Below, piece by piece: positions 40,259-44,336 of a DNA stretch of 64,000 nucleotides. Position numbers and translations under genes: made by a program. The notes beneath the pieces were generated by a model. The model saw only the letters and a list, made by a program, of their open reading frames with translations. It searched no databases and had not been told where the DNA came from. This DNA comes from the human T2T-CHM13v2.0 reference genome, Homo sapiens. Position 1 is the stretch's first letter, and every line of letters begins with the position of its first letter. The DNA lies in NCBI GenBank assembly GCA_009914755.4, contig CP086569.2, positions 25,088,001-25,152,000 on the forward strand. Direction: 5' to 3'.

Positions 40259-41357
40259 GGCTGCTGGATCACAGAATTCATGTGATAAAAAGTACCAACA
40301 TTTTGAAGTCCCACGAGATTTTCTGGTGGGTGAGATATAAGAGGGAGCAGATATTCCCATTCAAAAAGTGCTTCACAACCTGAGATAAGAAGAAAAAATA
40401 ATGCTTGTACTATGAAAATAATAATTCTGCCTACTCTTATTTCCATCAACTGACAATATTAACAACAACTCATCAACAAAGCATCAACACAGTCATTTTG
40501 AAAGAACACTTTGAATTTTCATATTAACAACAAATAGAGTGACCATATAGATTTTTAACTACAGACCCCTTAGTTCTGTATTTTAATGATATTACATCTA
40601 TTTGTTAAAAAAAGTGTTTGTTTAAAAAAAATCTCTTTAGAATATATATATAAACTGTGCCAATTCAGTTGTTAAATAAATTAACAAAATGAGTTTTTAA
40701 AAAGGAAATGCTTCTCTCTACATAGATCCCACAAGACAAAGATCGGACCTTTTAAGGAGTGAGTTTAGCTAGAAACTCCTACAATGTGGTAGAAAATATA
40801 GTCACCCAAAGAAAAATATACATGAATATAATTTCACATTTTCCAATAAAAGATCTGTACAGAATGCTATTGTTAATTGTATTCTAACCTTCACTTTTCT
40901 CTTGAAATAAACTAAATTTTGTTATCATTCGTTAATTTACTTATATTACTTCCCAACCTGAGTTTCAGTTCTGTGTAAGATTTTAACATTGCTACTTACT
41001 TTTTTAGCATGATGTGGACATTTAGAAGTAATAAAATGCACTCAAAAGTTCTCTTCTCACATTATGATTTTTAAAGCCATACCTCTGTTATACTTTAACT
41101 AAAATAACATTAAGCAGCTTCAAGGCTTGGGTTATGAAAATATTTTTAATGCATACATTTTAAATATAAACATAACACTAACTTCGGCTTCCCATTACTC
41201 TGAGGTTTCAGTATTTTTTAACACATGATTCAATAAAACCCACTTTGGTTACCAACACCAAATATAGGGGAGCACTTAAGAAATACATATTTTTTAAATT
41301 TACTATTGTCTGACATAAATGGTTTTATTTATTTTTAATTTTATTTTATTATTATTA

Positions 41358-42160
41358 TACTTTAAATTTTAGGGTACAGGTGCACAATGTGCAGGTTAGT
41401 TACATATGTATACATGTGCCATGCTGGTGTGCTGCACTCATTAACTCATCATTTAGCATTAGATGTATCTCCTAATGCTATCCCTCCCCCCTCCCCCGAC
41501 CCCACAACAGTCCCCAGAGTGTGATGTTCCCCTTCCTGTGTCCATGAGTTCTCATTGTTCAATTCCCACCTATGAGTGAGAATATGTGGTGTTTGGTTAT
41601 TTGTCCTTGCAATAGTTTACTGAGAATGATGATTTCCAATTTCATCCATGTCCCTACAAAGGACATGAACTCATCATTTTTTATGGCTGCATAGTATTGC
41701 ATGGCACATATGTGCCACAATTTCTTAATCCAGTCTATCGTTGTTGGACATTTGTGTTGGTTCCAAGTTGTTCCTATTGTGAATAATACCACAATAAACA
41801 TACTTGTGCATGTGTCTTTATAGCAGCATGATTTATAGTCCTTTGGGTATATACCCAGTAATGGGATGGCTGGGTCAAATGGTATTTCTAGTTCTAGATT
41901 CCTGACGAATCGCCACACTGTCTTCCAAATGGTTGAACTACTTTACAGTCCCATGAACAGTGTAAAAGTGTTCTTATTTCTCCACATCCTCTCCAGCACC
42001 TGTTGTTTCCTGACTTTTTCGTGATTGCCATTCTAACTGGTGTGAGATGGTATCTCACTGTGGTTTTGATTTGCATTTCACTGGTGGCCAGTGATGGTGA
42101 GTATTTTTTCATGTGTTTTTTGGCGGCATACATGTATTCTTTTGAGAAGTGTCTGTTCAC
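41358..42160 (-). pseudogene. L1 ORF2 C-terminal remnant plus 3' UTR; the direct segment of the twin-primed L1
   Basis: See the parent element. Its 3' UTR is the reverse complement of ggagatacatctaatgctaaatgatgagttaatgagtgcagcacaccagcatggcacatgtatacatatgtaactaacctgcacattgtgcacctgtaccctaaaatttaaagtataat. Confidence 0.85.
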
Positions 42161-44131
42161 CGCTACACAAATAAACTAGAAAATCTAGAAGAAATGGATA
42201 AATTCCTTGACACATACACCCTCCCAAGACTAAACCAGGAAGAAGTTGAATCTCTGAATAGACCAATAACAGGTTCTGAAATTGTGGCAATAATCAATAG
42301 CTTACCAACCAAAAAGAGTCCAGGACCAGATGGATTCACAGCCAAATTCTACCAGAGGTACAAGGAGGAACTGATACCATTCCTTCTGAAACTATTCCAA
42401 TTAATAGAAAAAGAGGGAAACCTCCCTAAGTCATTTTATGAGGCCAGCTTCATCCTGATACCAAAGCTGGGCAGAGACAAAACCAAAAAAGAGAATTTTA
42501 GACCAATATGCTTGATGAACATTGATGCGAAAATCCTCAATAAAATACTGGCAAACCAAATCCAGCAGCACATCAAAAAGCTTATCCACCATGATCAAGT
42601 GGGCTTCATCCCTGGGATGCAAGGCTGGTTCAATATATGCAAATCAATAAATATAATCCGCATATAAACAGAACCAAAGACAAAAACTACATGATTCTCT
42701 CAATAGATGCAGAAAAGGCCTTTGACAAAATTCAACAATGCTTCATGCTAAAAACTCTCAATAAATTAGGTATTGATGGGACGTATCTCAAAATAATAAG
42801 AGCTATCTATGAAAAACCCACAGCCAATATCATACTGAATGGGCAAAAACTGGAAGCATTCCCTTGGAAAACTGGCACAAGACAGGGATGCCCTCTCTCA
42901 CCACTCCTATTCAACATAGTGTTGGAAGTTCTGGCCAGGGCAATTAGGCAGGAGAAGGAAATAAAGGTTATTCAATTAGGAAAAGAGGAAGTCAAATTGT
43001 CCCAGTTTGCAGATGACATGATTTTATATCTAGAAAACCCCATTGTCTCAGCCCAAAATCTCCTTAAGCTGATAAGCAACTTCAGCAAAGTCTCAGGATA
43101 CAAAATCAATGTACGAAAATCACAAGCATTGTTATACACCAATAACAGACAAACAGAGAGCCAAATCATGAGTGAACTCCCATTCACAATGGCTTCAAAG
43201 AGAATAAAATACCTAGGAATCCAACTTACAAGGGATGTGAAGGACCTCTTCAAGGATAACTACAAACTACTGCTCAAGGAAATAACAGAGGATACAAACA
43301 AATGGAAGAACATTCCATGCTCATGGGTTGGAAGAATCAATATCCTGAAAATGGCCATACTGCTGAAGGTAATTTATAGATTCAATGCCATCCCCATCAA
43401 GCTATTATGACTGTCTTCACATAATTGGAAAAAACTACTTTAAAGTTCATATGGAACCAAAAAAGAGCTCGCATTGCCAAGTTAATCCTAAGCCAAAAGA
43501 ACAAAGCTGGAGACATCACGCTAGCTGACTTCAACCTATACTACAAGGCTACAGTAACCAAAACAGCATGGTACTGGTACCAAAACAGAGATATAGATCA
43601 ATGGAACAGAACAGAGTCCTCAGAAATAAGGCCACATATCTACAACTATCTGATCTTTGACAAACCTGAGAAAAACAAGCAATGGGGAAAGGATTCCCTA
43701 CTCAATAAATGGTGCCTGGAAAACTGGCTAGCCATATGTAGAAAGCTGAAACTGGATCCCTTCCTTACACCTTATACAAAAATTAATTCATGATGGATTA
43801 AAGACTTAAACGTTAGACTTAAAACCATAAAAACCCTAGAAGAAAACCTAGGCGTTACCATTCAGGACATAGGCATGGACAAGAACTTCATGTCTAAAAC
43901 ACCAAAAGCAATGGCAACAAAAGCCAAAATTGACAAATGGGATCTAATTAAACTAAAGAGCTTCTTCACAGCAAAAGAAACTACCATCAGAGTGAACAGG
44001 CAACCTACAAAATGGGAGAAAATGTTCACAACCTACTCATCTAACAAAGGGCTAATATCCAGAATCTACAATGAACTCAAACAAATTTACAAGAAAAAAA
44101 CAAACAACCCCATCAAAAAGTGGGTGAAGGA
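42161..44131 (+). pseudogene. L1 ORF2 remnant (RT domain through C-terminal region); the inverted segment of the twin-primed L1. It holds several open stretches of 100–257 aa but is not intact
   Basis: It carries the RT motifs [153 protein letters not shown], then [19 protein letters not shown] and [50 protein letters not shown]. Confidence 0.88.
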
Positions 44132-44336
44132 CATGGACATAAAGGGTTTTAAATATATATCTGATGGCTACCAAATGTTCAACTAGTTGATCAAAAGCAA
44201 GCAAAAAAATCATGTGCTAATTTTTTTCCAAATGAAAATATACTTTCAAAGTAAAGTATTATTAATGAACAAAACAGTTTTATAATTTAAAAACTCAGTA
44301 TGCATTGCCTTATGTATGTAATGTATTTCTTTCAAA

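What the first reader, a model, noticed from the sequence alone, without database searches (positions are those of the whole stretch)
41321..44147. A 2.8 kb L1PA insertion with a textbook twin-priming inversion and near-perfect 16-bp TSDs
The minus-sense 3' segment (41358–42160: ORF2 C-terminus, 3' UTR and tail) is joined head-to-head to a plus-sense ORF2 segment (42161–44131). The plus segment ends (…KKWVKDM) at exactly the L1 coordinate where the minus segment begins (MNRHFSK…), sharing the few bases gaaca at the outer breakpoint. That is the expected product of twin priming during target-primed reverse transcription. The flanks gacataaatggtttta and gacataaagggtttta match at 15 of 16 positions. 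The inverted segment retains long open stretches (172 and 257 aa) across the RT domain. Seeing it alongside a second, smaller twin-primed L1 at 36.7 kb is a good illustration of this mechanism.
Basis: partly seen in the sequence, partly recalled or inferred. Interest (0 to 1): 0.5.

Follow-up and report, generated by a model that had tools for sequence, protein, structure and literature searches.

The report
Dead L1 insertion with 5' inversion
This is an ordinary, long-dead human L1 retrotransposon fragment whose front part was inserted backwards, a common and well-described by-product of how L1 copies itself ("twin priming"). It is a clean example but not a new finding.

Summary
Window 41328-44135 is one 2.8-kb L1 insertion bounded by a 16-nt direct repeat (41312-41327 and 44136-44151, 15/16 identical). 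An antisense 3' piece (T-rich tail, 3'UTR, ORF2p aa 1077-1275; 41328-42157) meets a sense piece (ORF2p aa 417-1076 with the RT domain; 42158/60-44135). Rejoined in L1 order, the pieces align without a gap across the breakpoint (...GGACATG|AACAGAC...). This holds against two uninterrupted L1s in the window and all 24 L1 copies recovered as human contamination in bacterial assemblies. Only the dinucleotide CA (42158-42159) is ambiguous. The sense piece has no poly(A), and neither piece has its own flanking repeat. The tail side sits on a TTTT/AA endonuclease site. Both pieces hold the same position on the L1PA lineage. This anatomy matches twin priming, which accounts for the 5' inversions seen in about 18-22% of L1 insertions.

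"gaaca" lies at the inner junction, not the outer one. The element looks younger than L1PA4-7: 4.0% from an L1HS-like consensus, about 14 Myr, roughly the L1PA3-5 era.

One loose end remains. The tail-side piece is 1.6-fold more diverged (p about 0.01-0.05).

Verdict: already known, low interest.

The parts
41312..41327 (.). Left target-site duplication, GACATAAATGGTTTTA. Its 3' end, GGTTTT(A), is the primer end left by the first-strand nick at a TTTT/AA-type L1 endonuclease site.
   Evidence: (D5). The rebuilt empty site reads ...GGTTTT|AAATATAT.
41328..41357 (-). Degenerate poly(A) tail, read as T-rich sequence on the + strand. On the L1 sense strand it reads (TATAATAAT)AATAAAATAAAATTAAAAATAAA. 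The boundary with the L1 3' end is fuzzy by about 5-9 nt.
   Evidence: for the sequence. The alignment of the 3' end to two other L1 copies shows homology ending here.
41358..41558 (-). L1 3'UTR of the non-inverted, poly(A)-primed cDNA.
   Evidence: L1 nt about 5813-6010 of a full-length copy.
41559..42157 (-). ORF2 C-terminal part of the non-inverted piece: ORF2p aa 1077-1275 plus the stop codon. It carries one 1-nt deletion that shifts the frame near aa 1153. Its L1 5' end is AACAGACAC..., L1 nt 5215 in a full-length reference copy.
   Evidence: (alignment to PDB 8uw3).
42158..42159 (.). CA dinucleotide shared by both pieces at the inversion junction. It reads as TG of L1 ...CATG-AAC on the minus strand, or as CA of L1 CACC(T)CTAC on the plus strand. 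This is a 2-nt microhomology between the 3' ends of the two cDNAs.
   Evidence: The BLAST alignments of the two pieces overlap here: 42158-44139 and 42159-41363.
42160..44135 (+). Inverted, internally primed L1 piece: L1 nt about 3235/3237-5214, ORF2p aa 417/418-1076. It includes the reverse-transcriptase domain (Pfam RVT_1, about 42485-43227). It has two 1-nt deletions and two in-frame stops, and no poly(A) at its L1 3' end.
44136..44151 (.). Right target-site duplication, GACATAAAGGGTTTTA. The complement of its 5' end (...TATGTC-3' on the minus strand) is the inferred primer for the second cDNA.
   Evidence: (D5).

Best explanation
A single L1PA retrotransposition event that went through twin priming.

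Shown by the sequence:
- One target site (...TGTCT GACATAAA[G/T]GGTTTTA AATATAT...) now carries a 2.8-kb insert between duplicated copies of its 16 nt.
- The + strand continues from GGTTTT(A) into a T-rich run and then antisense L1, from the L1 3' end up to L1 nt about 5215.
- The - strand continues from ...TATGTC into antisense L1, from nt 5214 down to about 3235.
- The two antisense runs meet 3' end to 3' end at a shared CA/TG.

Inferred mechanism, following the published model:
1. L1 endonuclease nicked the + strand at TTTT/AA. The T-rich 3' end annealed to the poly(A) of an L1 RNA, and ORF2p began cDNA 1.
2. The - strand was cut 15-16 nt away before cDNA 1 was finished. Its 3' overhang annealed inside the same RNA, just downstream of ...GGACAUG, and primed cDNA 2 towards the RNA 5' end.
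3. cDNA 1 stopped where cDNA 2 had started, which explains the exact adjacency (0-2 nt overlap). cDNA 2 stopped about 2 kb upstream.
4. The two cDNA 3' ends paired through 2 nt (CA/TG) and were filled in. This left the upstream 2 kb inverted relative to the 0.8-kb 3' end.

The copy lacked the promoter, ORF1 and the endonuclease domain from the start. It has since picked up frameshifts and stops, so it does nothing today as a transposon.
For: - ORF2p coordinates of the two pieces abut at Met-1076.
- The rejoined pieces align gap-free across the breakpoint to two uninterrupted L1s in the window.
- In all 24 independent L1 copies from contaminant contigs, the plus piece ends at base s and the minus piece starts at s+1. 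On a full-length copy the alignments are 3235-5218 and 5213-6010.
- A 15/16 direct repeat lies exactly at both outer ends, and neither end shares a repeat with the inner junction: best runs are 8 and 7 nt, which is the background mode.
- The tail side has a TTTT/AA site, and the sense piece has no poly(A).
- The subfamily position is the same in both pieces: 4/22 versus 3/22 old states, Fisher p=1.0.
- Three-copy homogeneity of private changes gives p=0.21.
- The mutation spectra of the two pieces are alike.
- Literature: the model and its hallmarks are described in PMC2837659. PMC12016303 reports 5' inversion in 18.4% of germline and 21.9% of somatic L1 insertions. In 46% of inverted insertions the end of the non-inverted cDNA and the start of the inverted cDNA lie within 20 bp of each other.
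Against: - The poly(A)-primed piece is more diverged from a young-L1 consensus than the inverted piece: 5.5% versus 3.4%, Fisher p=0.014. For private changes only it is 3.9% versus 2.3%, p=0.028. By 200-bp bins, p=0.052. At the amino-acid level it is 12.6% versus 6.1% private, p=0.005. A single event predicts equal post-insertion decay.
- Microhomology at the internal priming site is weak: 4 of 6 nt, with a mismatch at the primer's 3' terminal base. The 2-nt microhomology at the inner junction is within chance.
- No empty orthologous site could be examined.
Confidence: 0.93

Rival explanations
1. An ordinary 5'-truncated antisense L1 (L1 nt about 3235 to the end) inserted first. Later a chromosomal inversion flipped only its 5' 2 kb, through two breaks rejoined by end joining.
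For: It would give the same order and orientation of the pieces, with no loss of L1 bases. Sequence alone cannot formally tell the timing of the inversion.
Against: One break would have to fall exactly at the L1/target-duplication boundary (44135/44136). The other would fall inside L1 with no base lost or gained. No inverted repeats exist that could drive recombination: the longest inverted pairs in the region are about 70% matches of 20-37 nt. Twin priming produces this exact geometry routinely, in about 18-22% of L1 insertions. This rival also fails to explain the divergence difference.
Confidence: 0.03
2. Two independent L1 events of different age: an older antisense L1 3' end, plus a younger sense ORF2 fragment that landed or was placed next to it.
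For: The 1.6-fold higher divergence of the antisense piece: 5.5% versus 3.4%, p=0.014, and amino-acid private changes at p=0.005.
Against: The pieces are adjacent on L1 to within 0-2 nt in all 26 reference copies. By chance that is of the order of 1 in thousands. The sense piece has no poly(A) tail and no flanking repeat of its own, and the only duplication encloses both pieces. Subfamily-diagnostic sites put both pieces at the same point of the lineage. Divergence per 200 bp inside the sense piece already ranges from 3 to 13 differences.
Confidence: 0.02
3. Priming of the two strands on two different L1 RNA molecules ('dual priming', or a template switch between RNAs), rather than on one RNA.
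For: The mechanism has been proposed for related structures (PMC2837659). Source-specific variants on two different RNAs could contribute to unequal 'private' differences.
Against: With two RNAs there is no reason for cDNA 1 to stop exactly where cDNA 2 began. Dual priming as proposed also starts both cDNAs in poly(A), but the inverted piece here starts inside ORF2.
Confidence: 0.02

Closest known systems
L1 5'-inverted insertions made by twin priming (Ostertag & Kazazian 2001, Genome Res 11:2059. That paper is not held in the library, so the model is taken as described in PMC2837659 and PMC12016303.)
   Same: - One pair of target-site duplications.
- Poly(A)-primed non-inverted 3' piece.
- Internally primed inverted upstream piece abutting the other duplication.
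- The pieces are adjacent on L1.
- TTTT/AA nick site.
- Short microhomology at the inner junction.
- The piece lengths are on the long side but within the wide range reported. The inverted piece is 1978 nt, against a germline median of 751 bp. The non-inverted piece is about 800 nt, against a median of 571 bp.
   Different: Nothing of substance. The overlap between the cDNAs is 0-2 nt, and many cases show larger overlaps or gaps. The inverted piece is longer than the median. Microhomology at the internal priming site is imperfect.
Ordinary 5'-truncated L1PA insertions made by classical target-primed reverse transcription
   Same: Endonuclease site, degenerate A-rich tail, 15-16 nt duplication, 5' truncation (here at L1 nt about 3235), and decay by point mutations and 1-nt deletions.
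   Different: The upstream 2 kb is in the opposite orientation.
The second 5'-inverted L1 in the same window (36680-37060)
   Same: Same architecture: an antisense piece (L1 nt 5659-5736) next to a sense piece (5743 to the end) with a poly(A) tail, flanked by A-rich ...CAGC repeats.
   Different: It is much shorter (about 0.4 kb) and younger (96.5-98.7% identical to the young consensus). Six L1 nt (GAAACC) are lost between its pieces, rather than none.

Membership tests
Twin-primed (5'-inverted) L1 insertion | Two fragments of L1 in opposite orientation, enclosed by a single pair of target-site duplications | tested here: met
   The 15/16 repeat is found only at the two outer ends, and no repeat involves the inner junction.
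Twin-primed (5'-inverted) L1 insertion | The non-inverted piece carries the L1 3' end and a poly(A) tail directly abutting one duplication, at an L1 endonuclease-type site (TTTT/A) | tested here: met
   The A-rich tail at 41328-41357 directly follows GGTTTT(A), and the rebuilt empty site reads GGTTTT|AAATAT.
Twin-primed (5'-inverted) L1 insertion | The inverted piece comes from upstream L1 sequence, its highest L1 coordinate abuts the other duplication, and it has no poly(A) | tested here: met
   L1 nt 3235-5214 lies on the + strand and ends at 44135, directly before the right repeat at 44136.
Twin-primed (5'-inverted) L1 insertion | The end of the non-inverted cDNA and the start of the inverted cDNA map close together on one L1 (a small gap or overlap) | tested here: met
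   The overlap is 0-2 nt. The rejoin is gap-free against 2 in-window and 24 external L1 copies.
Twin-primed (5'-inverted) L1 insertion | Both pieces derive from the same RNA, and so share subfamily and age | tested here: inconclusive
   The subfamily position is the same: 4/22 versus 3/22 old states, p=1.0. Total divergence differs 1.6-fold, with p=0.014 by Fisher and p=0.052 by bins. No Dfam or RepeatMasker was available.
Twin-primed (5'-inverted) L1 insertion | Microhomology between the target overhang and the L1 RNA at the internal priming site, and between the two cDNA ends at the inner junction (frequent but not obligatory) | tested here: inconclusive
   The inner junction shares 2 nt (CA). 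At the outer junction the target GACATA matches L1 AACAGA at 4 of 6 positions, with a mismatch at the primer's terminal base. A perfect GACAT lies 6 nt upstream, giving a GGACAT-GGACAT tandem. None of this is beyond chance.
Twin-primed (5'-inverted) L1 insertion | An empty orthologous or ancestral site equal to the flanks plus one copy of the duplicated 16 nt | not testable with these tools
   No primate genomes are available. Metagenome scans for the rebuilt empty site and for the inner junction found nothing.
L1PA lineage of primate LINE-1 | Sequence homology to human L1 ORF2 and 3'UTR at high identity | tested here: met
   E=0 to human ORF2p structures 8uw3, 8sxt and 9k6g. Pfam RVT_1 is hit. 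DNA identity to L1HS-like copies is about 96% for the sense piece and about 93-94% for the antisense piece.
L1PA lineage of primate LINE-1 | Assignment to a named subfamily (L1PA2...L1PA8) by diagnostic positions | not testable with these tools
   No subfamily consensus sequences are held, and the published subfamily primers lie in the 5'UTR, ORF1 or other regions. Indirect evidence: 4.0% from the young consensus, 37 of 44 old-versus-young sites in the young state, and 2.7% private changes. That gives about 14 Myr at about 1.9e-9 per site per year (rate from PMC5237266), roughly the L1PA3-5 era.

The most novel reading that the evidence does not exclude
The two cDNAs of a twin-priming event might not be equally faithful. 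The poly(A)-primed piece carries about 1.6-1.7-fold more private substitutions than the internally primed piece of the same insertion. The small second inverted L1 in the window leans the same way (10/282 versus 0/79 mismatches). If this were general, it would point to a difference in fidelity, ssDNA exposure or repair between first- and second-primed cDNAs at integration. My data show no APOBEC-like G>A excess, no clustering of changes at the junction, and only nominal significance. Regional noise is therefore much more likely.
Probability: 0.04. Interest if true: 0.4.

Novelty: already known. Interest (0 to 1): 0.08.

Why it matters
It matters little beyond correct annotation. The two adjacent opposite-strand L1 hits at 41.3-44.1 kb should be counted as one insertion event, not two. 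That affects repeat counts, insertion dating and any structural-variant interpretation at this locus. It is a tidy teaching example of twin priming, with base-exact breakpoints. With the second case at 36.7 kb, two of the four younger (L1PA-like) L1 insertions in this window carry a 5' inversion.

Tried and rejected
1. Translating whole pieces for the PDB search failed because of stops. I used concatenated open stretches instead.
2. An exact-protein look-up of the 257-aa open stretch in public assemblies found nothing. It would have identified the locus or its orthologues.
3. The original twin-priming paper (PMC311219) is not held. I took the model from PMC2837659 and PMC12016303.
4. The first tblastn-based amino-acid comparison to refA was corrupted by refA frameshifts. 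I redid it codon by codon on the DNA alignment.
5. A metagenome scan for the rebuilt empty site (TCTGACATAAANGGTTTTAAATATA) found nothing.
6. A metagenome scan for the inner junction (AGTGTCTGTTCACCGCTACACAAATAAAC) also found nothing. The insertion therefore cannot be dated by presence or absence.
7. Published L1PA subfamily primers lie outside the inserted region, so they could not be used to type it.
8. I considered APOBEC-type editing of one cDNA to explain the divergence step and rejected it. G>A makes up 5/31 versus 5/45 private changes, and the transition fraction is the same in both pieces.
9. I considered mutation clustering at the junction (error-prone fill-in) and rejected it, because the differences are spread along the whole piece.
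10. I considered that the open stretches mean retained function and rejected it. There are three frameshifts and two stops, and the endonuclease domain, ORF1 and promoter are absent.
11. L006 has an aberrant 3'UTR (25% from the panel consensus), so identities to it in that region are not meaningful. I used the majority consensus instead.
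Full report
**What is there.**
The region reads as human-type repeat DNA. On the + strand it contains, in order:
- a 16-mer, GACATAAATGGTTTTA (41312-41327);
- a T-rich run (41328-41357);
- antisense L1 sequence up to about 42157-42159;
- sense L1 ORF2 sequence up to 44135;
- the 16-mer again with one change, GACATAAAGGGTTTTA (44136-44151).

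The repeat finder returns this pair as family D5. With up to two mismatches the 16-mer occurs at these two places only, in 64 kb and on both strands.

**Protein coordinates.**
I concatenated the open stretches of the two pieces in L1 order and searched solved structures. They matched human LINE-1 ORF2p (8uw3, 8sxt, 9k6g, 8c8j) with E=0.
- The sense piece covers aa 419-1076, and 417-1076 at the DNA level.
- The antisense piece covers aa 1077-1275, the natural C-terminus.
- The sequence ...NNPIKKW(V)KDM of the sense piece and NRHFSKE... of the antisense piece are consecutive residues of ORF2p around Met-1076.
- Pfam RVT_1 is found in the 172-aa and 257-aa open stretches.

**DNA-level breakpoints.**
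The window holds two uninterrupted L1 copies that span the breakpoint. One is a near full-length antisense L1 at 12122-18291, and the other is a 3' part at 1-1549.
- I rejoined the pieces as 42158-44135 plus the reverse complement of 41328-42157. The result aligns to both copies with no gap at the joint...AAGGACATG|AACAGACACTTC....
- For an independent panel I scanned the species-representative bacterial and archaeal genome collection for an L1 33-mer spanning the breakpoint. This gave 24 contigs of human L1 contamination.
- In every one of them the sense piece ends at base s and the antisense piece starts at s+1.
- On a full-length copy (L006, with L1 nt 1 set by the 5' end motif) the sense piece aligns to nt 3235-5218 and the antisense piece to nt 5213-6010.
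- In that 6-nt apparent overlap, TG (5213-5214) is the CA at 42158-42159, which can belong to either piece. The other four nt are BLAST running on into the right repeat, where GACA sits against L1 AACA.
- So no L1 base is lost, and at most two are duplicated.

**Are the flanking repeats meaningful?**
A 15/16 match somewhere in 3 kb is not rare. One search shows another one, D14, inside L1. What matters is position.
- The two ends of the insertion share the 16-nt run.
- Left end against inner junction gives a best run of only 8 nt, and inner junction against right end gives 7 nt. That is the mode for random 50-mer pairs.
- Among 2000 random pairs, the only one to reach 16 nt was a near-identical 49-nt pair, so 0.05% in all.
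- Neither piece therefore has its own duplication, and the sense piece has no poly(A).
- The rebuilt empty site reads ...GGTTTT|AAATATAT on the strand that continues into the T-rich tail. This is a TTTT/AA L1 endonuclease site, with the duplication being 15 or 16 nt.

**Mechanism.**
The anatomy matches the twin-priming model as described in PMC2837659 and PMC12016303.
- The + strand 3' end GGTTTT(A) primed on the poly(A) and made antisense cDNA 1, which reaches L1 nt about 5215.
- The - strand 3' end ...TTTATGTC primed inside the same RNA and made antisense cDNA 2, from nt 5214 down to about 3235.
- The 3' ends of the two cDNAs (...GTCTGTTCA-3' and ...GTAGCGGTG-3') can pair through CA/TG. The inversion junction lies at exactly that point.
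- The priming steps and their order are inferred. The strand continuity, coordinates and junction sequences are read directly from the DNA.
- Microhomology at the internal priming site is weak. The target GACATA matches L1 AACAGA at 4 of 6 positions, with the primer's terminal base mismatched.
- A perfect GACAT lies six nt upstream in L1, so the outer junction reads GGACAT-GGACAT. I do not read anything into that.

**Same RNA, same age?**
- Against a majority consensus of 13 long, L1HS-like panel copies, the sense piece differs at 68/1978 sites (3.4%). The antisense piece differs at 44/798 sites (5.5%), Fisher p=0.014.
- Counting only changes shared with no other copy gives 2.3% versus 3.9%, p=0.028. 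By 200-bp bins, p=0.052.
- At the amino-acid level the private changes are 6.1% versus 12.6%, p=0.005.
- The contiguous L1 at 12-18 kb shows no such step: 6.8% versus 7.0%.
- Against this, at sites where at least two older copies agree and differ from the young consensus, the insertion keeps the old state at 4/22 sites in the sense piece and 3/22 in the antisense piece, p=1.0. Both pieces therefore sit at the same point of the L1PA lineage.
- The three-copy homogeneity test on DNA is not significant, p=0.21.
- The mutation spectra are alike. Transitions make up 19/45 versus 14/31 private changes, and G>A 5/45 versus 5/31.
- The extra changes are spread out rather than clustered at the junction.
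- Counts per 200 bp inside the sense piece already range from 3 to 13.
- I take the difference as regional noise that does not outweigh the base-exact structural evidence. I record it as unexplained.

**Age and subfamily.**
- Overall the insert is 4.0% from the young consensus (112/2776), of which 2.7% is private.
- With the crude rate of about 0.64 per billion years per substitution type (about 1.9e-9 per site per year) quoted in PMC5237266, that gives about 14 Myr. The two pieces taken separately give roughly 12-20 Myr. The same paper places L1Hs-L1PA5 at 3.1-20.4 Myr.
- A named subfamily cannot be assigned without consensus sequences, and published subfamily primers lie outside this part of L1.

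**State of the copy.**
Three 1-nt deletions (at rejoined positions 502, 1249 and 2208) and two in-frame stops break the ORF2 remnant. The endonuclease domain, ORF1 and the 5'UTR were never present. The 172-aa and 257-aa open stretches are what is expected in a copy with about 4% decay, and they are not evidence of function.

**Rivals.**
- A later chromosomal inversion of the 5' 2 kb would need one break exactly at the L1/duplication boundary and a lossless break inside L1. No inverted repeats are present to drive it.
- Two independent insertions cannot explain the exact adjacency in 26 reference copies, the missing poly(A), or the single duplication.
- Priming on two RNAs gives no reason for cDNA 1 to stop where cDNA 2 began.
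- Together I give these rivals about 7%.

**Comparison with what is known.**
5' inversion is reported in 18.4% of germline and 21.9% of somatic L1 insertions. In 46% of inverted insertions the end of the non-inverted cDNA and the start of the inverted cDNA lie within 20 bp of each other. This locus is a standard member of that class. Its inverted piece is fairly long (1978 nt against a germline median of 751 bp), and its join is unusually tidy.

**Verdict.**
The phenomenon is already known, so interest is low.

Noticed in passing
window 36680-37060: A second, small 5'-inverted L1. The antisense piece 36683-36761 is L1 nt 5659-5736, and the sense piece 36762-37060 is L1 nt 5743 to the end, followed by a long A-rich tail. 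Six L1 nt (GAAACC) are missing between the pieces. The flanks are A(10)CAGC on the left and A(n)GCAGC on the right, and 3 unassigned nt (ATG, 36680-36682) sit next to the left flank. It is young: 96.5-98.7% identical to the L1HS-like consensus.
   Followed up: partly
window 12122-18291 (- strand): A near full-length L1PA (L1 nt 3-6010, about 90.6% identical to an L1HS-like copy), with an extra block of about 125 bp at 17395-17519 between the two alignment pieces. I used it as the in-window reference 'refA'.
   Followed up: partly
window 1-1549 (+ strand): An older L1 3' part (L1 nt 4459-6010, about 86% identity), cut off by the start of the window. I used it as reference 'refB'.
   Followed up: partly
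window 24529-25153, 50625-51533, 59210-60238: Weak (64-83%) matches to L1, which suggest ancient LINE-1 fragments.
   Followed up: no
loci L001-L024 (genome contigs): Twenty-four species-representative bacterial or archaeal assemblies contain contigs that are human L1, some of them full length. Examples are Mycobacterium sp. 1100029.7 contig_1, Actinomadura cremea JCM 3308, several Streptomyces JCM strains and Psychrobacter cibarius W1. This is human DNA contamination in deposited prokaryotic genomes.
   Followed up: partly
window 41358-44135 and 12122-15000: Substitutions private to the window's L1 copies are rich in transversions (Ts/Tv 0.75 for the insertion and 0.90 for refA). The values are 1.3-1.5 for refB and for an old external copy. 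Part of this comes from excluding recurrent transitions when defining 'private', and the rest is not explained.
   Followed up: partly
window 41358-42157 vs 42158-44135: The poly(A)-primed piece is 1.6-fold more diverged from the young-L1 consensus than the inverted piece (5.5% versus 3.4%, p=0.014), although both have the same subfamily position. This is unexplained and is probably regional noise.
   Followed up: yes
window ~44340 onward: An Alu-like sequence (ggagtttgagaccagcctaggcaacatg...) begins about 190 bp to the right of the insertion.
   Followed up: no
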